This document shows positions 7,857 through 61,921 of a stretch of 64,000 bases of DNA, in pieces. The notes under the pieces are model-generated. The model did no database searches, was not told the origin of the DNA, and worked only from the letters and a program-made list of their open reading frames with translations. Origin of the DNA: an uncultured Candidatus Binatia bacterium (GTDB lineage: Bacteria; Desulfobacterota; Binatia; Bin18); contig CBDEWE010000003.1 of NCBI GenBank assembly GCA_965243855.1, positions 1,474,610 to 1,538,609 of the forward strand. The letters run 5' to 3'. Made by a program: the position numbers and the translations under genes. Each line of letters starts with the position of its first letter. Position 1 is the first letter of the stretch.

Positions 7857-7865
7857 GAGGACAGA

Positions 7866-8267: not shown

Positions 8268-8372
8268 ACCAGTCCTTTCTGCTGCATCTCCGCTGCAATG
8301 CTAGAAGGTTTCCTCAAGCACGGCTACTCCCTGTCTATGGATCGGAGCCTACATCTGTCTCCACATGTCTGC

Positions 8373-8642: not shown

Positions 8643-8693
8643 AGTCAGGTCATATTCCTTTGTTTGTGAGACTGCTATATTTCCGCACGAACA

Positions 8694-8748
8694 AAAGAGT
8701 AAACGTATCCAGCATCTGTATGTCTATTGGAGGACACGTTTCCTCTTC
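8694..8748. repeat. family-A palindromic element, copy 3
   Basis: AGAGTAAACGTATCCAGCATCTGTATGTCTATTGGAGGACACGTTTCCTCT. Confidence 0.9.
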
Positions 8749-8796
8749 GGTGTGTAGCATAGCTCAAAATGCTCCGCAGCCGCTCCCACATCACCT

Positions 8797-11627: not shown

Positions 11628-11678
11628 GCAGTCTCAGGCAAGGCCAGACTCATGCATTTATTCTAGGGAGGGAAGTCC

Positions 11679-11990
11679 TCAGACCGACAAGGTTTCGGAC
11701 TTCTCTACCGTATATTTCTTTGCATCCAGGGCTCCCGCCAGCAGGCTAGGGGCTTCTTTGAGAAAATTTTGCAGATGCTCGGTCTGAAAGTGGGCGGCAA
11801 GCGCCTCTTCCGACTCCCATTCCTCGAAGAGGAAGAAGGTATGTTCGGTGGTTGCCGCAGTGTGGAATTGATAACTGATGCAGCCCGGCTCTTTGAGCGT
11901 CTCCTCCACCATGTTCGCAGCAAGTGCCTTGGCGTCATTCCAGCGTTCGGCCTTGACCGGGATTGTCCCCGCAATAACGATCATGCGCAT
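11679..11990 (-). CDS. ABM (antibiotic-biosynthesis-monooxygenase-like) domain protein
   Basis: 103 aa with a ferredoxin-like ABM pattern (ISYQFH...FFLFEEWESEEALAAHFQTEH). Confidence 0.65.
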   Translation of the reverse strand: MRMIVIAGTIPVKAERWNDAKALAANMVEETLKEPGCISYQFHTAATTEHTFFLFEEWESEEALAAHFQTEHLQNFLKEAPSLLAGALDAKKYTVEKSETLSV

Positions 11991-12180
11991 CCTCCTTATC
12001 CGTTGAAAGATCGGTCGGCTAAGATCACGGTAGACTTGAACTCAGGAGAGAAGAAGAAAGCGGGAAATAATACAAGGGGATGTAACCGGAGTCAGACTTT
12101 ATGCATAGAACTACCGGTAACGTCTGTCAAACAAATAATTTTTTGAAACCGTCTGAGGAATGAATTACAAAAATAAATAT

Positions 12181-12194
12181 TAGACTATAGTCAG
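12181..12194. promoter_or_regulatory. TAGACTATAGTCAG palindrome upstream of the enoyl-CoA hydratase gene
   Basis: Same GACTATAGTC core, about 145 bp upstream of the 12329 start codon, in an AT-rich promoter region. Confidence 0.4.
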
Positions 12195-12328
12195 AAACGA
12201 ACATTCCAGAATTTTGGGGTTATCCATTCAGTTAAAAATGGACACTTTCCGACATGCCTGCTTTGTGAACTTCACGAGAAAAGCAGGGAAAGATGCAGTG
12301 AGGGTCATATCACCAGAAGGAGGGCGCG

Positions 12329-13198
12329 ATGTCGGATTTTGAATCTATTATGTATGAGACCCCTGTGGAGCATATAGCTCGCATTGTATTGAACCGGCCA
12401 GAAACTCGAAACGCACAGGATACCAAGCTGCTGTATGAATTGAATGCGGCCTTTGACCGTGCGGCACAAGATGATGCCATCAAGGTCATTATCCTGGCTG
12501 CAAACGGACCTCATTTTTCGTCCGGCCATGATCTGCGAGAGCCTAAAGTGTACGAGAAAATGTCTGAATTCGAGACGGTGGGAACCTGGTGCGGGTTTAC
12601 CTGTGCGGGTGCCGAGAGGCAGATGGCGCGCGAGAAAGAAATCTACGTTGGCTTTTGTGAACGCTGGCGTAATATTCCCAAGCCAACGCTGGCCGCAGTA
12701 CAAGGCAAGGTTATTGCCGGAGGACTGATGCTGATCTGGCCCTGCGATATCATTATCGCCAGCGGCGATGCGCAATTCTGCGACCCGGTGGTGAACTTTG
12801 GTATTGGCGAGGTAGAGTTTTTCGCTCACCCCTGGGAAGTCGGCGCGCGGAAGGCCAAAGAGATGCTCTTCACCTCAGACTGGATATCGGTCGAAGAGGC
12901 GAAGCAACTCGGCATGGTAAATCAAATCGTCCCTCGGGAGAAACTCGACGAAACCGTATTAGCCATGGCCCAAAAGATTGCAAAAAAATCCCTGTTTGCC
13001 CTGAAGCTGACCAAAGAGGCGGTCAACGTGGCGGAAGATGCGCAGGGTCGAGTCCAATCCATGCAAACGTCTTTTGCCTTGCATCAACTTGCCCACACCC
13101 ACTGGCTGGAGCAGTATGGCGTACTCTTGGACCCAACCGGCTTACCGCCTGAAACGGCCAAAGCCATCGGCGCAAAACTCAAGCAGAAAGAGACCTGA
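12329..13198 (+). CDS. enoyl-CoA hydratase/isomerase (crotonase) family protein
   Basis: 289 aa with crotonase-fold oxyanion-hole motifs (VIILAANGPHFSSGHDL; AAVQGKVIAGGLMLIWPCDIIIAS). Confidence 0.8.
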   Translation: MSDFESIMYETPVEHIARIVLNRPETRNAQDTKLLYELNAAFDRAAQDDAIKVIILAANGPHFSSGHDLREPKVYEKMSEFETVGTWCGFTCAGAERQMAREKEIYVGFCERWRNIPKPTLAAVQGKVIAGGLMLIWPCDIIIASGDAQFCDPVVNFGIGEVEFFAHPWEVGARKAKEMLFTSDWISVEEAKQLGMVNQIVPREKLDETVLAMAQKIAKKSLFALKLTKEAVNVAEDAQGRVQSMQTSFALHQLAHTHWLEQYGVLLDPTGLPPETAKAIGAKLKQKET

Positions 13199-13263: not shown

Positions 13264-14289
13264 TCAGGGGACTGTTTTCCAGCCTCCCTGGGGCTGGATG
13301 TTTTTGGCTTCAGGGATCACGCTGGTGCTAAACTGCTGCATCTGGTCTTCAAGCTCGGACAGTTGTCCGGACGGGCAGTCAAAGAAACATACCATCAGTC
13401 CATAGCCTTCTTTGGCAAAACCGTGGAGGTCTTCGAGGATTTGTTCTGCCGTGCCCGTACAGATGCGGCGTGGTTGCTCCTGACTGAGAGGATCGGACGG
13501 TGAGGTGAGGCGGGCCGAACTCACGCCCATCATGATAAACTCATCGTGCGGACGACCGATTGCATCCAGCTCTTTTCGGATCAACGCTTGTTCTTTGGTG
13601 TAACGGTCCGGCCGTGCAAAGGGGTCGAGGAAAATCGGATAAAAGCCGTCGCATAAGCGTGCTGCCCGTCGGGCGCCGCCAGGGGTGACGCCGCCATAGA
13701 TAATCGGGGGTGGCTGTTGCAGCGGCTTGGGGTCCATGGACAGCGAGGCAAACTGATAAAAACGGCCTTGGTAGCTGACGACATCGTCCGTCCACGAGCG
13801 CTTGTAGACCTCTATACATTCGTCGGTCCGCGGGCCACGCTCGGCATAGGGAATACCGATTGCGCCGAACTCCTCCTGCATCCAGCCGGCCCCGACTCCG
13901 AACAGCAGCCGCCCTTTTGAGAGCTGATCGATGGTCGCAAACTGGCGGGCGTCGCTGAGCGGATTGCGATAAGGAGAAATGAGGACACTCGTGCCGAGCT
14001 TGAGGCTGGTCGTCGTATGGGCAACGGCGCCCATCACCACGGCGGCATCGAACATGGTATGGCGCGGCTCGTAGGCTCGGCTGCCTGAGGCGTTAGCGAC
14101 ATGCTCGCTTTCCGAGGCCATAGGCATACACACATGGTCCGGAAACCACATGGAGTGAAAGCCAAGGTGTTCAGCGAGCTGGGCGGTTTCTATTGGCTGG
14201 AGCTGATCCGCAGGAAGGGAACGGGCCAGTACGTTCTGGTCATCCCGATAGGCCAGACCGTGCGTAGTCGCATATATACCAATTTCCAT
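13264..14289 (-). CDS. LLM-class F420/flavin-dependent oxidoreductase
   Basis: Luciferase-like motifs (MEIGIYATTHG start, LKLGTSVLISPYRNP, GRLLFGVGAGW). Start chosen at the internal Met; the ORF is open to 14325. Confidence 0.7.
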   Translation of the reverse strand: MEIGIYATTHGLAYRDDQNVLARSLPADQLQPIETAQLAEHLGFHSMWFPDHVCMPMASESEHVANASGSRAYEPRHTMFDAAVVMGAVAHTTTSLKLGTSVLISPYRNPLSDARQFATIDQLSKGRLLFGVGAGWMQEEFGAIGIPYAERGPRTDECIEVYKRSWTDDVVSYQGRFYQFASLSMDPKPLQQPPPIIYGGVTPGGARRAARLCDGFYPIFLDPFARPDRYTKEQALIRKELDAIGRPHDEFIMMGVSSARLTSPSDPLSQEQPRRICTGTAEQILEDLHGFAKEGYGLMVCFFDCPSGQLSELEDQMQQFSTSVIPEAKNIQPQGGWKTVP

Positions 14290-14492
14290 ATGTCTCCCCG
14301 TGTGCAATAGCTTCATGCTGCGCAATATTCAATTTGGATATCCATACTGCCTCCTGCCTGCGATCTTTACCACACTCGGGAATCGGGCTCAACGAAACGA
14401 GCGGTGCGAAACAGGCTGACTTTGCTTTCTTGACCCGTGTGGTCTATGCTCCGGCCAAAGAAGCGTACATTCCCTGTGTTGAGGAGAGGATT

Positions 14493-23530: not shown

Positions 23531-23971
23531 GAAATGTTTTGCAACGTTCCGGGCGAACTCGGCCACGATTTTGTCTGCCTTTTTCCGAATCACGGGCTGG
23601 CCGAACTCGCCCAGTTTGCCCATAAGCCGGGCTTCGGTCTGGATGGACAATTGGGTTTGCGCCTCTTCTTGTTCAACTAAAGTCAGCTCGGCACTGATAT
23701 GGACGCCGCCGCCAACGCGGCGGTCGTTTGCTTCCGCTCTGCCGACCGCACGCCAATTTGTTTGATCGAGTTCCTGTATGCTCAACTCGCCCTGTAAGGT
23801 GAGTCGAATAGGGCCGAATGTCACTTTCATCCGACCCGCGTATTGATCCTCACCGGCGGCGACAACCTCACTTACCCCAGGCACACAGGTCGCCATTTGA
23901 GGAACATCCATAAGAAAGTCCCACAGGGTTTCGCGCGCAACCGGGACGGTACAGCTATGCTCGAAGTTCAT
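23522..23971 (-). CDS. coxG: CoxG-like SRPBCC protein (carbon-monoxide-dehydrogenase subunit G family)
   Basis: 149 aa. It lies directly downstream of coxM in the operon. SRPBCC-like pattern. Confidence 0.65.
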   Translation of the reverse strand: MNFEHSCTVPVARETLWDFLMDVPQMATCVPGVSEVVAAGEDQYAGRMKVTFGPIRLTLQGELSIQELDQTNWRAVGRAEANDRRVGGGVHISAELTLVEQEEAQTQLSIQTEARLMGKLGEFGQPVIRKKADKIVAEFARNVAKHFKE

Positions 23972-24852
23972 TCGTTCCCCCTCCTTTCTTGAGCGCGTGT
24001 GACTGCCTGTTCGATGGCCCGCTGGGTAAAGACGACGGCCATGTCGCGCTTGTATTCTGCTGAGCCGCGAAAGTCCGCGAGAGGATCAATCTCTTCCGTC
24101 ACAAGAGCGGCCGCGTCACGAATAACCCGAGGGGTCAACGACTGGCCTTGGAGGGCCGTTTCAACTGCTCGTGTCCGGAGTGGGGTTGTCGCGGCGGCAC
24201 CCAGGGCGACACGGGCCTGAGCAATAGTGTCGCCGTCTAAGGAGATTCGTGCGGCGACGGCAATAGTTGCGTAATCGTCATGCGTTTGGGGCAGGAATTT
24301 CAGGAAAGAAGTCCCCGCGCCGGTAGGTTGGGGTGGGATGATAACGGTGGTGATGAGTTCTTCGGGTTCGAGAACGGTTTCATAATAATCGACAAAAAAG
24401 TCACTCAGCTCGATTTCCCGCTCGCCGTGGCGCGATTGGATTCGAATCCGCGCGTCCAGGACGAGCAGCGCAGGGGGTGGATCCTGGTTTGGGTCGGCAT
24501 GCGCCAACGAACCGCCAATGGTTGCGGCCGTCCGAATACGAACACTGGCCACATGCTGAAAGGTCGTAGCCAAAAGGGGAAGGCGGTGTTGAATCAGGGC
24601 TGAGGTTTCTATGGTACGGTGCGAACACAACGCCCCGATCGTGAGGTCGCCGTTGGTCCGAATCTCAGCGAGTTCCGGGCGGCGGGCCAGTTGGCGGAGA
24701 CCGATCAGATACGCGGGCTGAACCAGCCGCTGCTTCATCAGGTTGACCAGCCCGGTTCCGCCGGCAAGGACCTTGGCGTCCTCGCCGTGCTGTTCAAGCA
24801 GGGCTAAAGCCTCTTCGAGGCTTTCCGGTTCGACATATTCAAAGGCAATCAT
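23968..24852 (-). CDS. coxM: molybdenum hydroxylase FAD-binding subunit (CoxM-like)
   Basis: Begins MIAFEYVEPESLEEALALLEQHG...AGGTGLVNLMK, the classic FAD_binding_5 N-terminus. The start overlaps the coxS stop (ATGA). Confidence 0.8.
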   Translation of the reverse strand: MIAFEYVEPESLEEALALLEQHGEDAKVLAGGTGLVNLMKQRLVQPAYLIGLRQLARRPELAEIRTNGDLTIGALCSHRTIETSALIQHRLPLLATTFQHVASVRIRTAATIGGSLAHADPNQDPPPALLVLDARIRIQSRHGEREIELSDFFVDYYETVLEPEELITTVIIPPQPTGAGTSFLKFLPQTHDDYATIAVAARISLDGDTIAQARVALGAAATTPLRTRAVETALQGQSLTPRVIRDAAALVTEEIDPLADFRGSAEYKRDMAVVFTQRAIEQAVTRAQERRGNE

Positions 24853-25319
24853 GTGGTGACCTTTCCGTCCGCCACCGCCTGGATCGATGCGATGATTTTG
24901 TAATAGCCGGTACAGCGGCACAGATTGCCCATCATCCAGCTTTGAATCTCGTCTTTTGACGGATGCGGGTTTTCGTCCAACAGGGCTTTGGCCGACATGA
25001 TCTGACCCGGCGTACAGATGCCGCACTGAAAGCCGCCATAGTCGATAAACGCTTTTTGGAGCGGGTGCAGTCTGTCGCCTTCAGCCAGTCCTTCGATGGT
25101 GGTGACTTCGCCGCCGTCTGCCGTGACCGCGAGAGTCAAACAGGAACTGACGGGCTTACCGTCAAGCAGGACGGTACATGCTCCGCACACGCCCACGCTA
25201 CAGCCTTCTTTGGTCCCCGTGAGATCAAGCCCATTGCGTAACAAGTCAATGAGCAGGATGTTATCTGAAATATCCCGCTCAACCGCTTGGCCGTTTACCC
25301 GGAGTTGAATAGATTTCAT
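24849..25319 (-). CDS. coxS: molybdenum hydroxylase [2Fe-2S] subunit (CoxS-like)
   Basis: 156 aa with a plant-type ferredoxin cluster CSVGVCGACTV and a second cluster QCGICTPG...CRCTGY. Confidence 0.9.
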   Translation of the reverse strand: MKSIQLRVNGQAVERDISDNILLIDLLRNGLDLTGTKEGCSVGVCGACTVLLDGKPVSSCLTLAVTADGGEVTTIEGLAEGDRLHPLQKAFIDYGGFQCGICTPGQIMSAKALLDENPHPSKDEIQSWMMGNLCRCTGYYKIIASIQAVADGKVTT

Positions 25320-28213: not shown

Positions 28214-29392
28214 TTATGCGTTCAGCTTGGCTTCGTCCGCTGCGGTCGGACCTTCGACTCTGTACAGTTTTTGTCCGTTGTCCCACAGGATTTTACGCCG
28301 AACCTCTTCGTCACAATCGTCCAGGCCGTTCTTGATCCGATCATGAACCTCGTCGCCGTAAAGCGAAGTCGGGTGGGGAAAGTCGGTTTCAAACATGATC
28401 CGGTCAGCTCCGACCTTGTCGATCAGACGCCGTGGGGCAATCTGCTCGAACCAGTAGCAGGCGTAGATATTACGCGCAAAATACTCGGACGGCAGCATAT
28501 CGAGATCGGGCCGTTCTTCCGGGACTCGATTACCGAGGAATTGGTAGTCCAGAGCTTCGAGGGCAAACGGAATCCAACCGATACCGCTCTCAACCGAGAC
28601 AAATTTAATGCTGGGATAACGGGCCAGGACACCCGAAATGATGAGGTCACTCAACTGAATGCCGTTGCGCATGAAGATATCAACCGAAAGCTCGGCAAAC
28701 GCCGCCATTTTACCGTAGGTTTTCACCTTGTCGCGCCGCAGGCCGCCATCCATATTGCCAGAGCCAATATGAAAGCTGATTGGCTGGTCAAGCTCGCAGG
28801 CAACTTCCCACAACGGATTCCAGTGCGGGTCGCCCAGCAGGGGTTGGCCGAGCGATTGCGGGTCTCCGGTGAAGAGAATGCCCTTATGGCCCATGGCGTG
28901 ACAGCGTCGGATTTCTTCAACCGAGGCGTCGACATCCCAGAACGGCGTTGAGGTGATCGGGAGCAGGCGGCGGGAATCGGCTGACGCCCACTCGGTCTGC
29001 CAATCGTTATACACTTTGACACAGGTGAGCTTGAGCCCGGAGTCTTCGAGGCGGAGAAACTCCTGGCTGCCAAATCCCCCGACGTTGGGATACATGACCA
29101 TCGCCCAGATGCCCATTTCATCCATGTATTTGAGACGCTCCGTGGCGTCGAATGCCCCTGGGTGCATCTCGTCATACGACTTGGGCCAGTTGGTCATATC
29201 GCCCACGCCCGCGGTGGCGGTCAGCCCTGGATTGGCTATGCGCCGGTCGCCGAGGAACCACCACTGGCGTCCCTTGGCGTCGAAGTCAACGCGGGGGACC
29301 GAGTCTTTCAACTTATCAGGGACCCGACTGGTCCATAGGTCCGGCGTTTCCGTTACGTGTGTGTCAACGTCAATGATTGTATAGCCGCTCAT
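28214..29392 (-). CDS. amidohydrolase-2 family metal-dependent hydrolase (ACMSD-like TIM barrel)
   Basis: Begins MSGYTIIDVDTHVTE (an H-x-H metal-binding start) and has a later GIWAMVMYPN pattern. A GGAGG ribosome-binding site precedes the Met at 29392. Confidence 0.7.
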   Translation of the reverse strand: MSGYTIIDVDTHVTETPDLWTSRVPDKLKDSVPRVDFDAKGRQWWFLGDRRIANPGLTATAGVGDMTNWPKSYDEMHPGAFDATERLKYMDEMGIWAMVMYPNVGGFGSQEFLRLEDSGLKLTCVKVYNDWQTEWASADSRRLLPITSTPFWDVDASVEEIRRCHAMGHKGILFTGDPQSLGQPLLGDPHWNPLWEVACELDQPISFHIGSGNMDGGLRRDKVKTYGKMAAFAELSVDIFMRNGIQLSDLIISGVLARYPSIKFVSVESGIGWIPFALEALDYQFLGNRVPEERPDLDMLPSEYFARNIYACYWFEQIAPRRLIDKVGADRIMFETDFPHPTSLYGDEVHDRIKNGLDDCDEEVRRKILWDNGQKLYRVEGPTAADEAKLNA

Positions 29393-29565
29393 ATATGTGC
29401 CTCCTTCAGCCGCCATTCTGGAGTCCTAGCGTATCTGAGGACTCGACAATTGCCAAGTCGGACGGAGGAGGGCAGGGGCTTCATGACGGGGGTGGTCGTT
29501 GTCATCGACCTGTCCGTATATGATACACTGGAATCAGCCGAACCAACGAGGCATGGGAGGACTGT

Positions 29566-33392: not shown

Positions 33393-33443
33393 ATGAGTAA
33401 ACGTATCCAGCATCTGCATGTTTATTGGAGGACACGTTTACTT
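33393..33443. repeat. family-A palindromic element, copy 7
   Basis: GAGTAAACGTATCCAGCATCTGCATGTTTATTGGAGGACACGTTTACT. Lies between the acyl-CoA dehydrogenase and SDR genes. Confidence 0.9.
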
Positions 33444-33526
33444 ATCGGGACAGCATAAGAGTGAGCGGTTGCTCTTATGCTGCTCGGTCTTTGAGGGGCC
33501 AGTCGGCCCTGACTGAAGGAGGGCCC

Positions 33527-34279
33527 ATGCTTTTGGAAAATAAAGTTGCGCTTATTACCGGATCCGTCCGAGGGACCGGAGCTGGCATCGCTCGTGTTTT
33601 CGCCGGCGAAGGAGCGAAGGTTGTCATTAACCAAGTCAAAGAAGAAGGTAATCCTCAACAGGTGCTTGAAGAAATCGAATCAGCTGGCGGGCAAGCCCTA
33701 TTTGTCAAGGCAGACATTACGGATGAAGCTCAAGTTACTGATATAATTTGCCAAACCGAAGAACGGTTTGGTCAGATTGATATCCTCGTTAACAATTATG
33801 CTGGCAGTATTCCACAGAAACTGTTTCAGGACACAACCTGGGCGGACTGGCAGTATCAGCTCGATACGACGGTCAAAGCCGCCTTTTTGTGTGCGCAGGC
33901 GGTTTTGCCTGGAATGAAAACGCGACAGTGGGGACGGATCATCAGCATCAACACGATTGGCATTCATCAACCAAGACCGCACTATCATGCTTATATCGCA
34001 GCAAAAACAGCTATGTTGGGTTTCTCTCGGAATTTAGCGGTTGAATGTGGTCAGTATAGTATCACCGTCAATATTGTCTCTCCCGGCTTGACCTTAACTC
34101 AGGAAGTCAAAGACATGTTGACGGAGGAAACCCAGGCAAGGCATGAGAGCAAAGTGCCGTTGCGCAGAACAGGGACGGTTGAGGATACGGCAAACGCAGC
34201 GCTGTTTTTTGCGTCTGAGTTGAGCAGCTTCGTTACCGGCCACTACATGCCGGTGTGTGGTGGGCAGGTGTTAGAGTAG
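33527..34279 (+). CDS. SDR family oxidoreductase
   Basis: Begins MLLENKVALITGSVRGTGAGIA (TGxxxGxG). Catalytic YxxxK (YIAAK) present. Confidence 0.85.
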   Translation: MLLENKVALITGSVRGTGAGIARVFAGEGAKVVINQVKEEGNPQQVLEEIESAGGQALFVKADITDEAQVTDIICQTEERFGQIDILVNNYAGSIPQKLFQDTTWADWQYQLDTTVKAAFLCAQAVLPGMKTRQWGRIISINTIGIHQPRPHYHAYIAAKTAMLGFSRNLAVECGQYSITVNIVSPGLTLTQEVKDMLTEETQARHESKVPLRRTGTVEDTANAALFFASELSSFVTGHYMPVCGGQVLE

Positions 34280-34348
34280 GCTGAAAGATTGCTCGTTTGA
34301 TAAATATAAGACTGATAATTTTTCTTTTGTAAAATTTTAGGAGGATGT

Positions 34349-42675: not shown

Positions 42676-44121
42676 CTATTGGGAGAGCTTTTGCCGTAAG
42701 AGGGTATTGACCATCTGGGGATTGGCTTTGCCCTGGGTGGCACGCATAACCTGCCCGACAAAGAAGCCGATTAGCTTTTCTTTGCCGCTACGATAGGCCT
42801 CCACTTTGTCCGGGTTGGCCGTCAAGACCTTGGCAATAGCAGCCTGCAGAGTGTCGGTGTCGCTGACCTGGCGCAGTCCCTTGGCCTCAATGATCTCTTC
42901 TGGGGGCTGAGCGGTTTGGCGCATTTCCTCGTAGACGGTCTTGGCGATGGTCGTGCTGATGGTGTTGTCTTGTATCAATCCGATTAATTCGCCCAAGTGC
43001 TCGGGCGGGCAGGGCCAGGTCTCGATTTTCAGCGCCGCGTCCAGTTTTTCTTCCTTGATGAAGCGCAATACGCTGTCCATGACCCAGTTGCTGACGACTT
43101 TGGGTGCTGCGGGGCAGGCGCGCACGCTGGCCTCGAAATAATCCGCCACATCTTTGCGGGCCGTCAGCACCTCGGCATCATAGGCCGGCAGGTCGTAGTC
43201 GTGCATGAAGCGGGCTCTCCGTGTGGCTGGTAGCTCGGGCAGGACGGCTCGAATGTTTTCGACCCAAGTCTGGTCCACGACCAGTGGTAACAAATCCGGA
43301 TCGGGAAAATAGCGGTAATCGTGGGCGAACTCCTTGCTGCGCATGGGTCGGGTCACCTCTCGATCCGCATCCCATAGACGGGTTTCCTGGACGACCCGCC
43401 CGCCGGCTTCGACAACCTCGGTCTGGCGCTGAATTTCATGCTCGATCGCCTTTTCGACGGCGCGAAACGAATTGAGGTTCTTAGTCTCAGTTCTAGTGCC
43501 AAACTCGGTCTGCCCCTGCGGACGTATGGAGACGTTGGCGTCGCAGCGGAGACTGCCTTCTTCCATATTGCCATCACAGACCTCAATATATTGAAGCAGC
43601 GCCCGCAGGCTGCGCAGATAATTACCCGCTTCCGCGGCAGACCGGATATCCGGTTCGCTGACAATCTCTAATAGGGGAACACCGGTACGATTCAGGTCAA
43701 CAAGACTCGCGCCCGCTTCAGCATCATGGATGCTCTTGCCGGCGTCTTCCTCCATATGAATTCGGGTTAAGCGCACCTTCTTTGCTTGGCCTTGGTCGGC
43801 GACCTCAACATAACCGTGTTCGGCAATGGGCAGCTCGTACATGCTGATCTGGTAGCCCTTGGGCAGGTCGGGATAAAAATAGTTTTTCCGCGCCCAACGG
43901 CTGGTGGATGCAACCGCGCAGTGCGTGGCCAGTGCGGCGCGGAGGGCGAAATCAACGACCTTCTTATTGAGCACGGGCAAAACCCCAGGCAAACCCAGGC
44001 AGACCGGGCAGGTATGCTGGTTGGGCATTGCACCGAAGCGGGTGGAACAGCCACAAAAAATTTTTGACTCGGTCAGTAATTGCGCATGCACTTCCAGGCC
44101 AATGACGGATTCGTAGGACAT
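42676..44121 (-). CDS. gatB: Asp-tRNA(Asn)/Glu-tRNA(Gln) amidotransferase subunit B
   Basis: Begins [27 protein letters not shown]. 481 aa with a C-terminal GatB/YqeY domain. Confidence 0.95.
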
Positions 44122-53627: not shown

Positions 53628-54350
53628 ATGCGTATTATGAATAGTAAGACGGTTATTTCCCTGGCTGTAGGAGCAAGTCTCTCGCTCGCTTCTGTGGCCC
53701 TTGGGTACGACGCGGGTGCAGTGAGCAACGGCGGGAGTATTAGCGGAACCATTACGTTTATCGGCGACGCGCCTGAAGTCAAACCTGTTGAAGTAACCAA
53801 AGATACAAAGGTTTGCGCACAGACACAAAAATATGATGAGAGTCTTGTAGTTGGCGAGAACAAAGGTATAAAAAACGCGGTCGTCTCAATTTCGAATATT
53901 TCCAATGGGAAAGATTTTGGCGAGGCAATGGTCTTAGATCAAAAAGAATGTGTCTACACGCCGCATATCGTGCTCACGCCAACTGGGTCGGAACTCGAGA
54001 TTCTCAATAACGACGGTATTCTGCACAACATTCATACCTATAGCGAGGCGAACCCGGCCTTTAATCAGGCGCAGCCGAAGTTCAAGAAAAAACTGAAAAA
54101 GAAGTTCGACCAGCCTGAGGTCGTTCGGGTAGAGTGTGATGCCCATGGCTGGATGAAGGGCTGGATCGTTGTCATGGAACATCCTTATTATGCGGTGACC
54201 GACGGGGAGGGGAAGTTTAGCTTGAGTGACGTGCCGGCTGGCGAGTATGAAGTAAAGATCTGGCATGAGACCTTAGGCGAAACCATGCAGAAGGTCACAG
54301 TGGAAGCTGGTGGCGATGCGAGTCTCGCGGTAGAGTTATCGCAGTCGTAA
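53628..54350 (+). CDS. secreted cupredoxin-domain (type-1 copper) protein with an extra C-terminal beta-sandwich
   Basis: Signal peptide. The plastocyanin-like north-His region LEILNNDGILHNIH and the C-x2-H-x2-M ligand loop VRVECDAHGWMKGW follow the amicyanin pattern. The C-terminal VTDGEGKFSLSDVPAGEYEV resembles a carboxypeptidase-regulatory-like domain. Confidence 0.55.
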   Translation: MRIMNSKTVISLAVGASLSLASVALGYDAGAVSNGGSISGTITFIGDAPEVKPVEVTKDTKVCAQTQKYDESLVVGENKGIKNAVVSISNISNGKDFGEAMVLDQKECVYTPHIVLTPTGSELEILNNDGILHNIHTYSEANPAFNQAQPKFKKKLKKKFDQPEVVRVECDAHGWMKGWIVVMEHPYYAVTDGEGKFSLSDVPAGEYEVKIWHETLGETMQKVTVEAGGDASLAVELSQS

Positions 54351-54380
54351 GTTTTAGCGTTTAGAAGGATAAAAAAGGAG

Positions 54381-54416
54381 CCCTTTAAGGGGCTCCTTTT
54401 TTGTTGTGTGCCTTCT
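54381..54416. terminator. Rho-independent (bidirectional) terminator
   Basis: AAAAAAGGAGCCC-TTTAAG-GGGCTCC-TTTTTT: a 7-bp GC-rich stem flanked by an A-tract and a T-tract, 30 nt after the stop of the cupredoxin gene. Confidence 0.85.
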
Positions 54417-54430
54417 CCCGATACAGAAAT

Positions 54431-54454
54431 AGATATTGACTATAGTCAATATCT
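54431..54454. promoter_or_regulatory. perfect 24-bp palindrome AGATATTGACTATAGTCAATATCT (operator-like)
   Basis: Read directly in an AT-rich convergent intergenic region. Core TTGACTATAGTCAA. Confidence 0.5.
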
Positions 54455-54544
54455 ATTATTCCAACATATTTACCTCTTCCTTACCCGGAACAATAGTGCA
54501 AATTTTTAGAGGTGGGGTGGAATTTTTACCTGGAATTAAAGATT

Positions 54545-54558
54545 TTGACTATAGTCAA
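54545..54558. promoter_or_regulatory. second TTGACTATAGTCAA palindrome
   Basis: Identical 14-bp core, 109 bp downstream of the first. Confidence 0.5.
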
Positions 54559-55063
54559 TTATATTTTGTAAATCAAAGACTATTTCAATTGGGGGAGGAC
54601 CCTGGAAACCACTAAGGAGAAGACAGCCCATTCGGCTCCGTCTACATAGGATCGCAACAACGCTAACACTGTCTTGGCTTTCATTCAGTGCAGGTCTTTC
54701 ATAATCCACTCGCGCAGCGGATTATCATTATTGCACGCCTCCACCTAGAGCAAGTGACGATTCTGCGTAGCTGCTGGTCATTTCGCTGGAATGACCAGGT
54801 ATCCAGACCTCTAGCCCCCGGCCTCTGGATGGCCGGATCATGTCCGATATGACGTGAGGGTAGCGACATGGCTAGAACTTATCGTACAACGTGCGAGTGT
54901 CCCTCAGGCGCTGGTTTCGGATGTAGAGCCTTACAACGTGCATTCTGACAGAGGATGGGCTGGCAGTTGCCCTTGAATACTTCTTATTTACACCAGGATA
55001 TCTTCAGACCGACTATAATTTTACAAAATATATATTATCAGACATAATGTATAATATAAAAAC

Positions 55064-55720
55064 TCACTTGTCCGTCTTGGTGCGAACTACCTCAGCCAAT
55101 GGAGAGTCGGGGAATTGCTCTAACAAATCAACATACGCTTGCGGCACTGTAGCCTCCCCCTGTCGCTCTAAGACTTCTCCCAGGGCCAGGAATGCTTCAC
55201 TCTTGCCTGGTCCATCCAGCCGAGAAGCTTCTTCGTACCACTGGGCCGCGGCAGCGAACTCCTCAGCTTCTTCCGCCCCTTGACCCAAACGTAAGAGCGC
55301 AATCTGTTTCAAATACGGTCCAGCATCATGAAACGCGGCGACTCGCTCGTAGGCAGCCATCGCCTCGGCTGGCTGATTGCTCTTCTCAAATACTTCCCCT
55401 AAGTGCAAGGCGGCGACTCCCCTACTCTCGCGGTCAAGCACCGCTTCTGCCTGGGCGAGTTCGGCAATCGCCACATCGTACTCTTCCGATTCAATGGCAA
55501 GGAGTCCAGCACGGAAATATGCCAGCCCCTGACTATGACGATACTGTGTCCAGGTGGCCCAGGAAATACCGGATATGGCGCATACCACAACAACAACGCC
55601 CCCAAGGACAATCTGCCGTTTGTAATGCATGATAAGGCCCGACCGCTGCCGGAACCATTCAATCAAACGTGCCGAGGGGTATGAAGATGGAGACAGCTCT
55701 TGCTTACGACTGCGCGCCAT
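55064..55720 (-). CDS. TPR-repeat membrane-anchored protein
   Basis: N-terminal TM helix, then several 34-aa TPR-like repeats (AYFRAGLLAIESEEYDVAIAELAQAEAV...). Confidence 0.6.
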   Translation of the reverse strand: MARSRKQELSPSSYPSARLIEWFRQRSGLIMHYKRQIVLGGVVVVVCAISGISWATWTQYRHSQGLAYFRAGLLAIESEEYDVAIAELAQAEAVLDRESRGVAALHLGEVFEKSNQPAEAMAAYERVAAFHDAGPYLKQIALLRLGQGAEEAEEFAAAAQWYEEASRLDGPGKSEAFLALGEVLERQGEATVPQAYVDLLEQFPDSPLAEVVRTKTDK

Positions 55721-55749: not shown

Positions 55750-56268
55750 CTACATCTTGTACTTAAAGTCGTCTGGAGACATCTTCTCCAGGATCTCTGC
55801 CCATTTATCCCGAGAGACACTCGACAAATCAGCCTCTTCCTCACTGTCTTCCGTCTGCTCGAGTACGCTCGATGACTCAAGCACCTGGGTTGCCACAAAG
55901 ATGGGACATTTTGTTCGCAGCGCAAGCGAGATCGCATCACTCGGCCGAGAGTCAATCGAAATGTCTCGTTCCCCGACCTTGAGGCGAATGGCGGCATAAT
56001 ACGTGTTGTCCTGGAGACTCGTCACCTCAATGGCCTCGACCCTGCCCCCAACCTCTTTGATCATATTGTGGAGCAAGTCATGGGTCATGGGACGCGCCAT
56101 TTTGATCCCCTCCAGCTCAGTCGCCATTGAGGTCGCTTCCATCAAACCAATCCAAATCGGCAGGTTGAGCTTGTTCTCTGCATCTTTCAGGATGACGATT
56201 GGGGTCTTGGTCACCGGGTCGAGCGTCAACCCGCCGACTTTCATTTCGATAAAACCCTCGCGGTCCAT
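55750..56268 (-). CDS. bifunctional nuclease family protein (BFN/DUF151 domain)
   Basis: MDREGFIEMKVGGLTLDPVTKTPIVILKDAENKLNLPIWIG is the conserved BFN-domain N-terminus. Acidic C-terminal tail. Confidence 0.7.
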   Translation of the reverse strand: MDREGFIEMKVGGLTLDPVTKTPIVILKDAENKLNLPIWIGLMEATSMATELEGIKMARPMTHDLLHNMIKEVGGRVEAIEVTSLQDNTYYAAIRLKVGERDISIDSRPSDAISLALRTKCPIFVATQVLESSSVLEQTEDSEEEADLSSVSRDKWAEILEKMSPDDFKYKM

Positions 56269-58767: not shown

Positions 58768-58890
58768 TCTTCCTCCTCAGCGAATACATGTCGGCAGACC
58801 CTATCACAGGGGTAGCTGAAACACAACGTGAACCCCCTTCCTTCTTGCCTCTTGCGACGACTCGTTCCCCATCTTATACTGCCGCGCGCT

Positions 58891-59667
58891 ATGTGTACGC
58901 TCGCCTTGTACTTCCAAACTTTTCCAGACTATCCCCTCGTGGTAGCGGCAAACCGGGACGAATTTTTGAGTCGTCCCTCCACCGCACCGGTCGTGCTCCA
59001 GCACACTCCCTGGATTTTTGGCGGGAAGGATCTTGTGGCCGGAGGAACCTGGCTGGGTGTCAACCAGCATGGGCTTGTGGCCGGCATGTTGAACCGGCAC
59101 ACACCGCAACCAACTGACCCACGCCGGCGTTCGCGTGGCTTGTTAAGCCTGGATGCCCTTCAGGCGACATCCGCCCGCCAGGCTGCCACGTCCGTGCAGC
59201 GCCAACCTGCCGATCGCTACAACCCCTTCAATCTTCTCCTGGTTGATAGCCAAGCTGCCTATGTTGTCTACCCGGCTGAGCAGACCATCCATGTTCAGCC
59301 GCTCGAGCCTGGGGTCCATCTGTTGACCAATATGAATCTCAACGATCCCGAATGTCCCAAGATCGCGCACTCGTTTCAGCATTTTCAGGCCGTAGCAGAA
59401 AAAGTGACTGCGGCCCCCGAATTGTCTTTTTCCGTCGTGGAGCTTTTTCGCCTCCTCCATGAGCGACTTGCAGACCATGCCACACCGCTTGACCCACGGG
59501 CGGAGGATCCGCGTAACGGCCTGTGTATCCACCTCGACGGCTACGGCACCTGCTCTTCGACATTACTTGCGTATTCCGCTCGACAGCGCCAATTTATCTA
59601 TCACTTTGCCCCTGGCGCCCCGTGCCAGACCGATTATAGCGAGGTCTCGGTGCCGTCGTGCCCCTGA
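58891..59667 (+). CDS. NRDE family protein (TANGO2/DUF833 homologue)
   Basis: Begins MCTLALYFQ, with the eponymous motif VVAANRDEF. Confidence 0.85.
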   Translation: MCTLALYFQTFPDYPLVVAANRDEFLSRPSTAPVVLQHTPWIFGGKDLVAGGTWLGVNQHGLVAGMLNRHTPQPTDPRRRSRGLLSLDALQATSARQAATSVQRQPADRYNPFNLLLVDSQAAYVVYPAEQTIHVQPLEPGVHLLTNMNLNDPECPKIAHSFQHFQAVAEKVTAAPELSFSVVELFRLLHERLADHATPLDPRAEDPRNGLCIHLDGYGTCSSTLLAYSARQRQFIYHFAPGAPCQTDYSEVSVPSCP

Positions 59668-60391: not shown

Positions 60392-61921
60392 CTACCCTTT
60401 TTGTTCTGGCACGGTGAGTGGAATGGTCAAGGTAAAGGTCGCGCCGCCATCTCTATTATTATGTGCGGAGACCGTCCCATTATGGAGTTCGATAATTTTT
60501 TGCGTGAAGGCGAGGCCTAAACCGGAACCGGTTTTCTTGGTAGAAACAAAGGGGGCAAAGACCTGTTCAGCCACTCCCTCCGGAATACCCGTGCCCGTGT
60601 CTCGGACTGTAACCTGCATCTGATCCTGTACCTGTCGTGCCCCAATCGTAATCTGTCCATCTTCAGATGAGGCTTCCAGCGCGTTCGCTAAGAGATTCAA
60701 GATGGCCTGCTTGAGCTTGATATGATCAAAGGGCATGAGAGGTCCCTCACCCTGCATTGCCAACTCATAGCGGAGCGTCACCCCTCGTGCCCGAGCGGCT
60801 TCATGAATTTCTCGTCCCGCCTCTTGCAGGAGTTTGCTCAATAACCCAGGCTCACGATGAACGGCAAAGTCACGGGAAAAGACCAGCAGATCGGACAGCG
60901 TGGTGTTCAAGTCTGTAATGGCCGCATCGAGTTGTTCGACTCGTTGGGAGGCCTCTTCCAGTGTCTCGTGGGTGGGTGGCTGCGTTTCGTCCAGCGTATC
61001 TCGCAACAGGTCGCACTGAAGACCTAAGAGGCCGATTTTCTGGAGGATTTGGTGTGAGATCGTCGACGACATATGTCCAATTGCCGCCATGCGTTCGCTT
61101 CTTGCCATATCGACATTCATCAATTGAAGTTGCGTATTTTGACGCTCAATTTCCTTTTTGCGAAGCGTGAGCGTCCGCATGAGCACATGGGCCGCCCCAA
61201 CCGGAATAGCGCTCAAGTAGAGTCCTGCCCCCCCAAAGGTATTGACCCCAAGGATCATGATCGCACTATACGGCGTGACCAGCAGCAGCCCGGTAATCAT
61301 CAATGTCGGGAAATTACCTGCAAAATCGAGCCCGGACGTATAGAGTGTCCCATACCGCGCACGGTGCTGTAATCCATAACCCAGGGTAAAAACAGCCCAC
61401 CCGCCTGCTTCACTCAGTATGAATCGTGCCAGTTCTTCAAATTCTCCAATATGAATAGGAATGTGCCCACCGCTCGAACGATAAACGATATAGCGGGCAA
61501 AGAGTGCCATTTGCAGCAGCGCGCATAATTCAAGAATCCGTCGGACCGGGTGGGCGTCCTCTCGTACGGTTTGGGGCACCGTATCTACGCCCCACCATCT
61601 TACTACCAAGGAGAGAGGGAGACTGAGGAATATTGATCCGAGGAGTAAGGGTAAGGCAAACAGCCCAACCGTGTACAGCAGTGAACTCGTCACCGCAAAG
61701 AGTAAGAGAGACAGGAACCAGTCTTGTCCCACCTCAACCCGCAACAACACTCCAATACACAGCAGAGGCACAAACGCCTGGTAGAGATCAAGATAGCCAA
61801 GATTAAACGCGACAAAACCACTCGCCGCCAACAGAAGACCGAACAATCCGCCAGCAGTTCCAGCTTGCAGAGGGCTGAGCACTCTCTCGTCGCTCATCAC
61901 TCCCGGCCCGTCAGAAACCAA
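60392..61921 (-). CDS. sensor histidine kinase with polytopic membrane N-terminal domain
   Basis: About 6 TM helices, then a DHp H-box (IGHMSSTISHQI) and a HATPase_c domain (GTGIPEG; GSGLGLA). Confidence 0.85.
   Translation of the reverse strand: MVSDGPGVMSDERVLSPLQAGTAGGLFGLLLAASGFVAFNLGYLDLYQAFVPLLCIGVLLRVEVGQDWFLSLLLFAVTSSLLYTVGLFALPLLLGSIFLSLPLSLVVRWWGVDTVPQTVREDAHPVRRILELCALLQMALFARYIVYRSSGGHIPIHIGEFEELARFILSEAGGWAVFTLGYGLQHRARYGTLYTSGLDFAGNFPTLMITGLLLVTPYSAIMILGVNTFGGAGLYLSAIPVGAAHVLMRTLTLRKKEIERQNTQLQLMNVDMARSERMAAIGHMSSTISHQILQKIGLLGLQCDLLRDTLDETQPPTHETLEEASQRVEQLDAAITDLNTTLSDLLVFSRDFAVHREPGLLSKLLQEAGREIHEAARARGVTLRYELAMQGEGPLMPFDHIKLKQAILNLLANALEASSEDGQITIGARQVQDQMQVTVRDTGTGIPEGVAEQVFAPFVSTKKTGSGLGLAFTQKIIELHNGTVSAHNNRDGGATFTLTIPLTVPEQKG

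What the first reader, a model, noticed from the sequence alone, without database searches (positions are those of the whole stretch)
54417..55063. 660-bp AT-rich convergent intergenic gap with perfect TTGACTATAGTCAA palindromes; the same core recurs at 12183
A strong terminator closes the + strand operon at about 54416 and the minus-strand TPR gene ends at 55064. Two converging 3' ends should not need 650 bp of spacer. The GC content here is far below the rest of the window. The gap contains a perfect 24-bp palindrome (AGATATTGACTATAGTCAATATCT) and a second TTGACTATAGTCAA 109 bp later, plus a half-site (GACTATAATT) at 55011. The same GACTATAGTC core occurs about 145 bp upstream of the enoyl-CoA hydratase gene (12181-12194). 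Such 14-bp palindromes are typical dimeric transcription-factor operators, and two to three copies suggest a regulated promoter driving something unannotated here. Between the palindromes, stretches such as 54620-54840 contain stable local hairpins (CTGGTCATT..AATGACCAG). A 26-aa Cys-containing micro-ORF (54868-54948, MARTYRTTCECPSGAGFGCRALQRAF, with a GAGG ribosome-binding site) could be the regulated unit. Alternatively the region is a decayed mobile-element or prophage remnant.
Basis: seen in the sequence. Interest (0 to 1): 0.65.

Follow-up and report, generated by a model that had tools for sequence, protein, structure and literature searches.

The report
Terminus dif site with palindrome pair
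The long gap between two converging genes is the end point of chromosome replication in an uncultured Binatia bacterium: it holds the ordinary dif site where tangled sister chromosomes are separated, some fast-decaying filler DNA, and an unexplained, strongly conserved pair of protein-binding palindromes.

Summary
The palindromes, the gap and the terminator are real. The proposed regulated promoter, hairpins and micro-ORF are not supported. That central stretch is unconserved (28% identity, 35% gaps), unstructured, and matches no Pfam or Rfam family.

The AT-rich block next to the TPR gene (55018-55045, minus strand, ATGTCTGATAA|TATATA|TTTTGTAAAAT) is a XerC/XerD dif site:
- It is the top hit in the window for a matrix built from published dif sites of other phyla (35.2 bits; shuffles reach 16.6 at most).
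- It is conserved in 16 related Binatia loci, with a variable 6-bp centre.
- GC skew flips there regardless of gene strand.
- GGGNAGGG (KOPS) motifs converge on it (14:2 in the window, 80:4 overall).

The two TTGACTATAGTCAA copies are the cores of a convergent pair of asymmetric roughly 30-bp elements (palindrome, 8 nt, ATTCCA).
- They are 95-96% conserved while the spacer between them is 31%.
- Their spacing is fixed at 107-111 bp in 14 loci.
- They always lie 64-2133 bp from dif, on its XerD-arm side.

The 12181 copy has the same architecture and is conserved in orthologous loci. The element is rare, and nothing suggests it is mobile or an RNA. Its binding protein and role are unknown. A terminus-linked polar site is my favoured guess, and a transcription-factor operator is the main rival.

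The parts
54371..54408 (+). Intrinsic terminator of the Rieske / cytochrome b / multihaem cytochrome c operon (hairpin AAAAAAGGAGCCCTTT/AAGGGGCTCCTTTTTT followed by a T run)
   Evidence: Inverted repeat I2. It is conserved in all aligned relatives at 73% identity. Operon content comes from Pfam.
54434..54467 (+). Left arm (P1) of the convergent pair: 14-bp palindrome TTGACTATAGTCAA (54436-54449), 8 nt, then ATTCCA (54458-54463). In this genome the palindrome extends to a perfect 30 bp (54428-54457).
   Evidence: 47.6 bits on the arm matrix. The 14-mer is 96% conserved and ATTCCA 88%.
54468..54526 (.). AT-rich spacer between the two arms. Its length is constrained but its sequence is not.
   Evidence: The middle of the spacer is 31% identical to relatives with 1% gaps. 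Palindrome-to-palindrome spacing is 107-111 bp in 14 loci.
54527..54560 (-). Right arm (P2) of the pair, in inverted orientation: TGGAAT (54531-54536), 8 nt, then TTGACTATAGTCAA (54545-54558)
   Evidence: I1; 49.5 bits. The 14-mer is 95% conserved.
54575..55010 (.). Unconserved filler between the pair and dif. No function is assigned.
   Evidence: Identity to relatives is 28% with 35% gaps. Its length ranges from 64 to 2133 bp among loci (positions). Fold z-scores are -0.97 and +0.74. There is no Pfam match, no Rfam match, and no match in phage or plasmid collections.
55018..55045 (-). dif site, read on the minus strand as ATGTCTGATAA|TATATA|TTTTGTAAAAT. The XerC arm is 55045-55035, the centre 55034-55029 and the XerD arm 55028-55018.
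   Evidence: It is the best hit in the window for a matrix built from other phyla (35.2 bits, next 21.8, shuffles at most 16.6). It is conserved in 16 loci with a variable centre. GC skew flips here. KOPS motifs converge on it. Its XerC arm equals that of published Acidobacteria and Chlamydiae dif predictions.
12179..12212 (+). Single copy of the same asymmetric element: TAGACTATAGTCAG, 8 nt, then ATTCCAG. It points in the same direction as P1 and lies in the intergenic region upstream of the enoyl-CoA hydratase gene (12329-13198).
   Evidence: 40.8 bits. Its position and orientation are conserved in L019, L025 and L023.
34308..34335 (+). Degenerate dif-like relic AAGACTGATAA|TTTTTC|TTTTGTAAAAT, 29 nt after the stop of gene 33425-34279
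   Evidence: It matches dif at 23 of 28 positions and scores 21.8 bits, above every shuffle. In L020 the orthologous position holds the intact dif and the palindrome pair.

Best explanation
The gap is the replication terminus of a Candidatus Binatia chromosome. It has three layers.

(1) The AT-rich block beside the TPR gene is the chromosome's dif site. XerC and XerD bind its two 11-bp arms and exchange strands across the 6-bp centre to resolve chromosome dimers. FtsK is steered to the site by GGGNAGGG motifs that point at it from both sides. The site, the skew flip and the motif polarity are shown here. The proteins and the reaction are inferred from the XerCD/dif family.

(2) The 436 bp between the palindromes and dif is disposable DNA that turns over quickly. 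In one relative it holds insertion-sequence debris. Its hairpins and its micro-ORF have no role.

(3) The two TTGACTATAGTCAA palindromes are the cores of a convergent pair of asymmetric roughly 30-bp sites (palindrome, AAWC, ATTCCA). A dimeric DNA-binding protein most likely binds them.
- Selection keeps their sequence and their spacing of about 10.4 helical turns, but not the DNA between them. This points to two protein complexes on one face of the helix, possibly bridging.
- The element is very rare in the genome.
- It always sits on the XerD side of dif.
- In the few cases that can be oriented, it points along the direction of replication.

For these reasons I favour a terminus-linked, orientation-dependent role, such as a fork or translocase barrier or a terminus anchor, over gene regulation. 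That last step is inference only.
For: Terminus:
- The + strand is G-rich left of the gap even in minus-strand genes (GC3 skew +0.16 to +0.18 for 13264-14325, 23968-25026, 28214-29416 and 42676-44121). It is C-rich right of the gap, including the + ORF 58828-59667.
- The same +/- flip occurs at the pair and dif in every locus with enough flank, including L020, whose flanking genes differ.

dif:
- A position matrix built only from published dif sites of Acidobacteria, Actinobacteria, Proteobacteria, Firmicutes, Chlamydiae and Bacteroidetes ranks 55018-55045(-) first of about 128,000 positions. It scores 35.2 bits against 21.8 for the next hit and 16.6 for the best of 30 shuffles.
- The orthologous site is the top hit in all 16 syntenic loci (21.5-39.9 bits). 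Truncated or non-syntenic loci reach at most 11 bits.
- The arms are conserved while the centre varies (TATATA, TGGATA, GATATA, CATATA, GGTATA).
- GGGNAGGG runs 14:2 toward dif in the window and 80:4 over all loci. It is the most frequent and second most skewed of 42 same-composition controls.

Pair:
- The 14-mers are 95-96% identical to relatives, against 31% for the spacer and 23% for the linker to the terminator.
- Spacing is 107-111 bp in 14 loci.
- All pairs are convergent.
- All five pairs found in an unbiased metagenome scan lie next to a dif-like site, on its XerD-arm side.
- There is no covariation between the arms (p = 0.27), so a long RNA or ssDNA hairpin is not what is selected.

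Rarity:
- No further copy scores above 14 bits in the window or in roughly 150 kb of other flanks.
- The metagenome scan gave about as many single-site loci as pairs.

Orientation:
- The arrow (palindrome to ATTCCA) follows KOPS and the leading strand at P1, P2, 12181, L022 and L030.
Against: dif:
- Single occurrence per chromosome could not be checked, because only 64 kb of the genome is available. Neither could the presence of xerC, xerD and ftsK.
- The XerD arm in this clade begins TTTTG rather than the usual TTATG. More distant relatives have TTATG.

Pair:
- No candidate binding protein was found. None of about 52 window ORFs has a DNA-binding, Tus or RTP domain.
- The association with dif is largely inherited synteny, so the 14 loci are not 14 independent observations.
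- The pair is equally linked to the 3' end of the cytochrome operon.
- Relatives L011 and L012 keep dif and both flanking genes but lack the pair, so it is dispensable.
- The orientation test rests on five sites, and two of them are oriented by a single KOPS motif each. GC skew at those loci is not significant.
- The 12181 copy sits in a divergent promoter region, as an operator would.
Confidence: 0.62

Rival explanations
1. The palindromes are operators of a dimeric transcription factor, for example a CRP/FNR/FixK-type regulator. That factor controls the enoyl-CoA hydratase region at 12181 and some transcript in or beside the gap.
For: - TTGACTATAGTCAA fits the generic FixK/FNR box TTGA-N6-TCAA (a paper listed), and P1 and P2 are the only two such boxes in the window.
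- The 12181 copy lies in what is probably a divergent intergenic region, between an ABM-like gene on the minus strand and the hydratase gene. It is conserved there in L019, L025 and L023.
- The operon ending at the gap is respiratory, a typical target class for such regulators.
- Two operators about 10.4 helical turns apart resemble repression loops.
Against: - The pair lies between two converging 3' ends, after a strong terminator.
- The arms face each other across an unconserved 67-bp spacer.
- No -10 element is conserved at class II distance or elsewhere (my reading).
- Nothing downstream is conserved, structured or coding.
- The central CTATAG, which FNR-type boxes leave free, is invariant in every copy.
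- The one-sided AAWC...ATTCCA extension has no counterpart in such operators.
- Other single copies lie downstream of genes or between converging frames (L022, L030).
- No regulator gene is present in the window.
Confidence: 0.22
2. The pair is a REP/BIME- or REPIN-like doublet, or a miniature inverted-repeat element, that happens to sit in a permissive convergent gap. The 12181 copy would be another member of the family.
For: - The family consists of extragenic palindromes that occur as singlets and as an inverted doublet of about 125 bp.
- A relative that lacks the pair (L011) has a cluster of GC-rich REP-like inverted repeats in the same gap.
- Four of 38 sites have been extended to perfect 30-34-bp palindromes with different flanking sequence. 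This suggests hairpin-prone DNA.
Against: - Copy number is very low. There are three in 64 kb, none in roughly 150 kb of other flanks, and about one single-site locus per pair in the metagenome scan.
- The spacer and the 8-nt linker differ completely between copies, so they are not recent copies of one another.
- The orthologous copies stay 95-96% identical while neighbouring DNA has randomised. That is purifying selection at the locus, not transposition.
- No Y1/RAYT transposase was found in the window.
- There is no match in the phage, plasmid or viral collections.
Confidence: 0.07
3. The GC-normal centre of the gap (54575-55010) encodes a small RNA or the 26-aa Cys-rich peptide.
For: - The ORF 54868-54948 has an ATG and a GAGG upstream.
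- Local hairpins exist.
Against: - The region is 28% identical to relatives with 35% gaps. For the ORF the figures are 18% and 52%.
- tblastn gives no hit at the syntenic position.
- There is no Pfam hit and no Rfam hit even at E <= 1.
- Folding energy is no better than shuffles (z -0.97 and +0.74).
- The length of this stretch varies from 64 to 2133 bp among loci.
Confidence: 0.03
4. The conserved AT-rich block at 55011-55063 is not dif. It is merely the promoter-like or terminator region of the TPR operon, or of an antisense transcript.
For: - A sigma-70-like match (TTTACA, 17 nt, CATAAT) lies at 55020-55048 on the + strand.
- The 18 nt between the block and the TPR stop are also 79% conserved.
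Against: - The match to dif sites from other phyla is 18 bits above any shuffle.
- The conservation pattern is two fixed arms with a free 6-bp centre. That is the pattern of a tyrosine-recombinase core site, not of a promoter.
- The block coincides with the skew flip and the KOPS convergence.
- It stays with the palindrome pair in L020, where the TPR gene is replaced by another gene.
Confidence: 0.04

Closest known systems
XerCD/dif chromosome dimer resolution sites (E. coli GGTGCGCATAATGTATATTATGTTAAAT; B. subtilis ACTTCCTAGAATATATATTATGTAAACT; predicted Acidobacteria and Chlamydiae sites in Kono et al. 2011, PMC3025954)
   Same: - It has the 11 + 6 + 11 bp layout.
- Its XerC arm A[TC]GTC[TC]GATAA is identical to the published Koribacter Ellin345 and Chlamydophila abortus predictions.
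- Its XerD arm is TT[TA]TGTAAAAT.
- It lies at the GC-skew shift point.
- KOPS-like GGGNAGGG motifs converge on it.
   Different: - In this clade the XerD arm starts TTTTG instead of TTATG.
- A second, degenerate copy lies 20.7 kb away in inverted orientation (34308-34335).
B. subtilis RTP/Ter fork trap. [quoted passage not shown] From memory, its innermost terminators IRI and IRII are an inverted pair a few tens of bp apart.
   Same: - The sites are asymmetric and about 30 bp long, made of a strong dimer-type core plus a one-sided auxiliary part.
- An inverted pair sits at the terminus close to dif.
- There are a handful of copies per genome.
- The one outlying copy on the same replichore has the same orientation as the nearer member of the pair.
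   Different: - There is no sequence similarity.
- No RTP (or Tus) gene is found next to the sites or anywhere in the window.
- The core here is a perfect palindrome.
- Fork arrest is untested.
- dif lies just outside the 67-bp interval rather than inside the trap.
E. coli MatP/matS (13-bp palindrome GTGACRNYGTCAC marking the Ter macrodomain)
   Same: - Both are short palindromes containing TGAC...GTCA that are tied to the terminus region rather than to promoters.
   Different: - The half-sites are separated by 4 bp, not 3.
- The flanking base is T, not G.
- No matS-consensus match occurs in the window.
- matS sites are symmetric and number about two dozen. These sites are asymmetric and rarer.
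- From memory, MatP is confined to enterobacteria and Vibrio.
FNR/FixK-type operators (TTGA-N6-TCAA)
   Same: - The 14-mer fits the consensus exactly.
   Different: - The centre is invariant.
- The site has a one-sided extension.
- The pair is not in a promoter.
- No -10 element is found at the class II distance.
REP/BIME/REPIN extragenic palindromes
   Same: - Both are extragenic palindromes found as singlets and as inverted doublets of about 110-125 bp in a convergent gap.
   Different: - Copy number is very low.
- The copies share nothing outside the motif.
- The locus is under purifying selection.
- No RAYT transposase was seen.
IMEX and other elements that accumulate beside dif (review PMC5357621)
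   Same: - The DNA immediately beside dif is hypervariable in length and content.
- In L001 it contains transposase and resolvase fragments.
   Different: - No second direct dif-like site flanks the variable stretch.
- No phage or plasmid similarity was found.

Membership tests
XerCD dif site | A 28-bp core made of two 11-bp arms with partial dyad symmetry (inner ..ATAA / TTAT..) around a 6-bp centre | tested here: met
   The core is ATGTCTGATAA|TATATA|TTTTGTAAAAT. Across loci the arms are conserved and the centre is free. The inner TTAT reads TTTT in this clade and TTAT in L020, L024, L026, L027 and L031.
XerCD dif site | Sequence similarity to established or predicted dif sites of other bacteria | tested here: met
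   The site scores 35.2 bits on a phylum-weighted matrix built from 38 published sites. It ranks first in the window, and shuffles reach at most 16.6 bits.
XerCD dif site | [quoted passage not shown] | tested here: met
   The skew flips from + to - at the gap independently of gene strand. It does so in all related loci with enough flank. The position relative to oriC could not be seen.
XerCD dif site | FtsK-orienting polar sequences converge on the site | tested here: met
   GGGNAGGG runs 14:2 in the window and 80:4 overall. It ranks second of 42 composition-matched controls for skew and first for count. That Binatia FtsK reads this motif is assumed.
XerCD dif site | A single functional copy per chromosome | not testable with these tools
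The window holds one strong site plus a degenerate relic at 34308.
XerCD dif site | xerC, xerD and ftsK present in the genome, and recombination at the site | not testable with these tools
   No integrase-family protein is found among the window ORFs.
Replication fork trap (Tus/Ter or RTP/Ter type) | Asymmetric (polar) protein-binding sites | tested here: met
   Every copy has AAWC...ATTCCA on one side of the palindrome only. Matrix scores are 29-50 bits in that orientation and at most 31 bits in the other.
Replication fork trap (Tus/Ter or RTP/Ter type) | Sites in two opposed groups flanking the terminus, each oriented to let forks in but not out | tested here: inconclusive
   P1 and P2 are opposed at the skew flip. 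The single copy 42 kb to the left has the orientation of P1. Two unrelated single-copy loci are co-oriented with their one KOPS motif each. There are too few sites, and none was seen on the right-hand side (only 9 kb available).
Replication fork trap (Tus/Ter or RTP/Ter type) | A cognate terminator protein, usually encoded next to a Ter site | tested here: not met
   Pfam scans of about 52 window ORFs found no Tus, RTP or any DNA-binding domain. The neighbours of the sites are TPR, BFN-domain, cytochrome, hydratase and ABM-like genes. A new protein family elsewhere in the genome is not excluded.
Replication fork trap (Tus/Ter or RTP/Ter type) | Match to a known Ter consensus | tested here: not met
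   The E. coli Ter core GNRNGTTGTAACKA gives no match with up to 1 mismatch. The B. subtilis consensus was not scanned.
MatP/matS | The 13-bp palindrome GTGACRNYGTCAC | tested here: not met
   There is no match with up to 1 mismatch in the window. The element here has a 4-bp centre and T flanks.
CRP/FNR-family operator | TTGA-N6-TCAA dyad centred near -41.5 (or -61.5 and so on) of a promoter with a -10 element | tested here: inconclusive
   The dyad is met. For the pair the promoter context is not met: the gene ends converge and no -10 is conserved. For the 12181 copy a promoter context is possible.
REP/BIME/REPIN | High copy number, near-identical copies, and an associated RAYT transposase | tested here: not met
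   There are three copies in 64 kb and none in roughly 150 kb of other flanks. The linkers and spacers are unrelated between copies. No Y1 transposase is found in the window.
Known RNA families (Rfam 15) | A covariance-model match | tested here: not met
   Nothing but chance-level hairpin matches appear at E <= 1 in 54300-55200. There are no gathering-score matches in the window or in five related loci. No tRNA or tmRNA was found.

The most novel reading that the evidence does not exclude
The convergent pair and its few co-oriented single copies are the binding sites of an undescribed terminus system in Binatia. This would be a third, independently evolved replication fork trap, or a polar barrier or anchor for FtsK or SMC, placed within 0.1-2 kb of dif. 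Its asymmetric sites would work like RTP/Ter, but the protein would be unrelated to Tus or RTP.
Probability: 0.2. Interest if true: 0.75.

Novelty: new member of a known kind. Interest (0 to 1): 0.42.

Why it matters
The dif site is ordinary biology. It does, however, fix the replication terminus of an uncultured class (Binatia). It also explains a puzzling non-coding gap without invoking a hidden gene.

The part worth following is the palindrome pair. Fork traps are known only from the Tus/Ter and RTP/Ter systems, and how most bacteria finish replication and organise the terminus is open (review PMC10331603).

The element here is rare, asymmetric and strongly selected. It sits as an inverted pair beside dif, with a fixed spacing of about 10 helical turns. 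That makes it a concrete, cheap-to-test candidate for such a system.

If it turns out to be only an operator, the finding reduces to one new transcription-factor motif.

Tried and rejected
- **Rfam at E <= 1 over the gap, and at gathering score over the window plus five loci:** nothing real.
- **tRNA/tmRNA scan:** none.
- **blastn of the gap against plasmids and phages:** no match.
- **Viral-contig scan for the element:** none.
- **Exact-protein look-ups to extend the window:** the source genome is not in that collection.
- **Long RNA or ssDNA hairpin between the two arms:** rejected, because the 8-nt linkers do not covary within genomes (p = 0.27).
- **Sigma-70, sigma-54 and ECF promoter readings of the arm in either direction:** no consistent hexamers at proper spacing (my reading).
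- **IMEX insertion as the origin of the variable core:** no second direct dif-like site within 7 mismatches.
- **Core derived from a neighbouring gene fragment:** only weak similarity to the two closest relatives, and one chance-level 53-nt match.
- **A third GACTAT half-site after P2:** present in only 3 of 14 loci.
- **Literature search for the 12-mer TGACTATAGTCA:** only an unrelated human primer.
- **ZapT as an analogue:** it has no sequence motif and its sites lie inside genes.
- **GC skew as an orientation test at single-copy loci:** too weak to use.
- **The 125-aa ORF 11769-12146 as a possible RTP-sized binding protein:** it is probably spurious, because the conserved ORF is an ABM-like protein on the other strand.
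Full report
**What is there**

The window comes from a Candidatus Binatia bacterium. The protein encoded just left of the gap finds 13 syntenic loci in Binatia MAGs, at 68-96% identity.

The gap runs from 54351 to 55063. On its left is the last gene of a Rieske / cytochrome b / multihaem cytochrome c operon. On its right is a membrane-anchored TPR gene on the other strand.

A GC-rich hairpin with a T run (54371-54408) ends the operon. TTGACTATAGTCAA occurs exactly at 54436 and 54545, and with two mismatches at 12181. That is three matches where 0.03 are expected.

Only the two flanks of the gap are AT-rich. The middle has normal composition.

**What is conserved**

I aligned the gap with seven relatives and measured identity by segment.

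| Segment | Identity to relatives |
|---|---|
| Terminator | 73% |
| Each 14-bp palindrome | 95-96% |
| 28-bp block beside the TPR gene | 95% |
| Linker from terminator to P1 | 23% |
| Spacer between the palindromes | 31% (almost no gaps) |
| 436-bp centre | 28% (35% gaps) |

The centre also:
- folds no better than shuffled sequence (z -0.97 and +0.74);
- has no Pfam match and no Rfam match;
- has no phage or plasmid similarity.

Its length ranges from 64 bp (L020) to 2133 bp (L001). In L001 it contains IS1-like transposase pieces and a resolvase fragment. I treat it as disposable DNA.

**The AT-rich block is dif**

Read on the minus strand, 55018-55045 is ATGTCTGATAA|TATATA|TTTTGTAAAAT. This is the 11 + 6 + 11 layout of a XerC/XerD site.

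- *Conservation.* The 28-mer occurs once in each of 11 genome loci, and dif-like top hits turned up in five further metagenome loci. The arms are conserved and the 6-bp centre changes (TATATA, TGGATA, GATATA, CATATA, GGTATA).
- *Match to published sites.* Its XerC arm is identical to the dif sites published for Koribacter Ellin345 and Chlamydophila abortus.
- *Matrix test.* I built a matrix from 38 published dif sites of six other phyla. It ranks this site first in the window at 35.2 bits. The next hit scores 21.8, and the best of 30 shuffles scores 16.6. The same matrix picks the orthologous site as top hit in all 16 syntenic loci. It finds nothing above 11 bits in truncated or unrelated loci.

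**It sits at the terminus**

- Left of the gap, the + strand is G-rich even within minus-strand genes (GC3 skew +0.16 to +0.18 in four of them). Right of the gap it is C-rich, including the one + ORF.
- The same flip is seen in every related locus with enough flank. This includes L020, where the genes on the dif side are different.
- The E. coli-type FtsK-orienting motif GGGNAGGG points toward the site from both sides, 14:2 in the window and 80:4 over all loci. It is the most frequent and second most skewed of 42 control octamers of equal composition.
- This matches the published link between dif and the skew shift point (PMC3025954).

I could not test whether the site is unique in the chromosome, or whether xerC, xerD and ftsK are present.

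**The palindromes are a convergent pair of asymmetric elements**

- *Architecture.* Each palindrome is followed, on the side facing its partner, by AAWC and then, 8 nt from the palindrome, by ATTCCA. The copy at 12181 has the same architecture (TAGACTATAGTCAG, 8 nt, ATTCCAG).
- *Wider search.* An exact-pattern scan of metagenome contigs returned 13 loci.
  - Five are convergent pairs with 107-111 bp spacing. Each lies next to a dif-like site, on its XerD-arm side.
  - Three are orthologues of the 12181 site, with conserved position and orientation.
  - Three are other intergenic single-copy loci. One of them holds a segmental duplication.
  - Two lie inside long ORFs of organisms with different composition and look like chance matches.
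- *Copy number.* No weaker copies exist in the window or in roughly 150 kb of other flanks. The element is therefore rare, a handful per genome at most.
- *What it is not.* The 8-nt linkers do not covary between the two arms of a pair (p = 0.27). What is selected is the sequence of each arm and the distance between them, not pairing between them. That argues for protein binding and against an RNA or a mobile hairpin.
- *Side observation.* Four of 38 sites have grown into perfect 30-34-bp palindromes with unrelated flanking sequence, against about 0.1 expected. I read this as template-switch perfection of a hairpin-prone site. That is an inference.

**What the pair does**

*Against a promoter operator.* The pair lies between converging 3' ends, behind a strong terminator. 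The arms face each other. No -10 element or downstream product is conserved.

*For an operator.* The 14-mer fits TTGA-N6-TCAA, the FixK/FNR box. The 12181 copy lies in a probable divergent promoter region.

*For a terminus-linked role.*
- Two of the few copies in the genome sit beside dif, across loci whose flanking protein has diverged to 57% identity.
- The site is asymmetric.
- In the five cases that can be oriented (P1, P2, 12181, L022, L030), the arrow follows KOPS and the leading strand.

This geometry recalls the B. subtilis RTP/Ter design, in which a strong and a weak dimer site make a polar barrier and opposed sites form a trap.

*Against that reading.*
- No Tus, RTP or any DNA-binding gene lies in the window.
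- The window contains no E. coli Ter or matS consensus.
- L011 and L012 keep dif without the pair.
- The dif association is mostly inherited synteny.
- The orientation test is thin.

I therefore put about 0.9 on dif and the terminus. I put about 0.85 on the pair being a selected protein-binding element. I put only about 0.2 on a fork-trap or terminus-barrier system specifically, and about 0.22 on a plain operator.

**Verdict**

It is the replication terminus with a standard dif site, which is a new member of a known kind. Next to dif lies filler DNA, and beyond that an unexplained, conserved, rare palindrome pair.

The regulated-promoter and micro-ORF reading is not supported. The pair is the only part that could be new, and whole-genome scans of the complete Binatia chromosomes already in the archives would settle most of that question.

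Noticed in passing
window 34308-34335 (+); L020 258-285 (-): A degenerate dif-like site (AAGACTGATAATTTTTCTTTTGTAAAAT) matches dif at 23 of 28 positions and has an identical XerD arm. It lies 29 nt after the stop of the short-chain dehydrogenase gene 33425-34279, inverted relative to the real dif 20.7 kb away. In L020 the orthologous spot, after the same gene, carries the intact dif and the palindrome pair. This suggests that a 20.7-kb inversion between two inverted dif-like sites distinguishes the lineages.
   Followed up: partly
L001 6970-9100: In the closest relative, the stretch between the palindrome pair and dif is 2.1 kb. It holds IS1-like transposase fragments (8300-9089), a serine-resolvase fragment (7091-7273, -) and, judged by eye from its sequence motif only, a DUF1232-like ORF (7524-7868, -).
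   Followed up: partly
L011 6798-7023: A more distant relative lacks the TTGACTATAGTCAA pair. In the same gap it has a cluster of GC-rich REP-like inverted repeats, including perfect 15-nt arms TTGAGCCTGTCGAAA / TTTCGACAGGCTCAA that are 112 bp apart start to start. This spacing is close to that of the pair.
   Followed up: no
window 54428-54457; L020 63-96 and 170-203; L024 2198-2229: Four of 38 element copies are extended to perfect 30-34-bp palindromes, and the added flanks are unrelated in sequence between genomes. About 0.1 such sites are expected by chance. The pattern looks like template-switch perfection of a quasi-palindrome.
   Followed up: partly
window 11628-12328: The mechanical ORF 11769-12146 (+) is probably not a gene. 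In L019 the opposite strand carries a well-formed 101-aa ORF that looks like an ABM (antibiotic biosynthesis monooxygenase) protein (judged by eye; no Pfam scan was run). The 12181 element therefore lies in a divergent intergenic region next to the ammonium transporter / ABM-like genes and the enoyl-CoA hydratase gene.
   Followed up: partly
L030 100-200 and 2480-2580: Two direct copies of the element, with about 80 nt of identical downstream sequence, lie 2.4 kb apart. They bracket a 205-aa ORF, a 324-aa membrane-protein ORF and a duplicated fragment of the neighbouring 536-aa gene. This is a segmental duplication or insertion that ends at the element.
   Followed up: no
window 55750-56268 (-): A 172-aa BFN (bifunctional nuclease domain, PF02577) gene is the most conserved neighbour of the dif gap. 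It is 74-78% identical in the distant loci L024, L026, L027 and L031, where the adjacent TPR gene is 35% identical (L024, L027) or undetected (L026, L031).
   Followed up: no
window 1-64000: None of the roughly 52 ORFs scanned carries a recognisable DNA-binding or regulator domain. The only signalling gene is a histidine kinase-like ORF at 60392-61921. Housekeeping genes (secA, argJ, gatCAB, serS) lie within 20 kb of the terminus.
   Followed up: no
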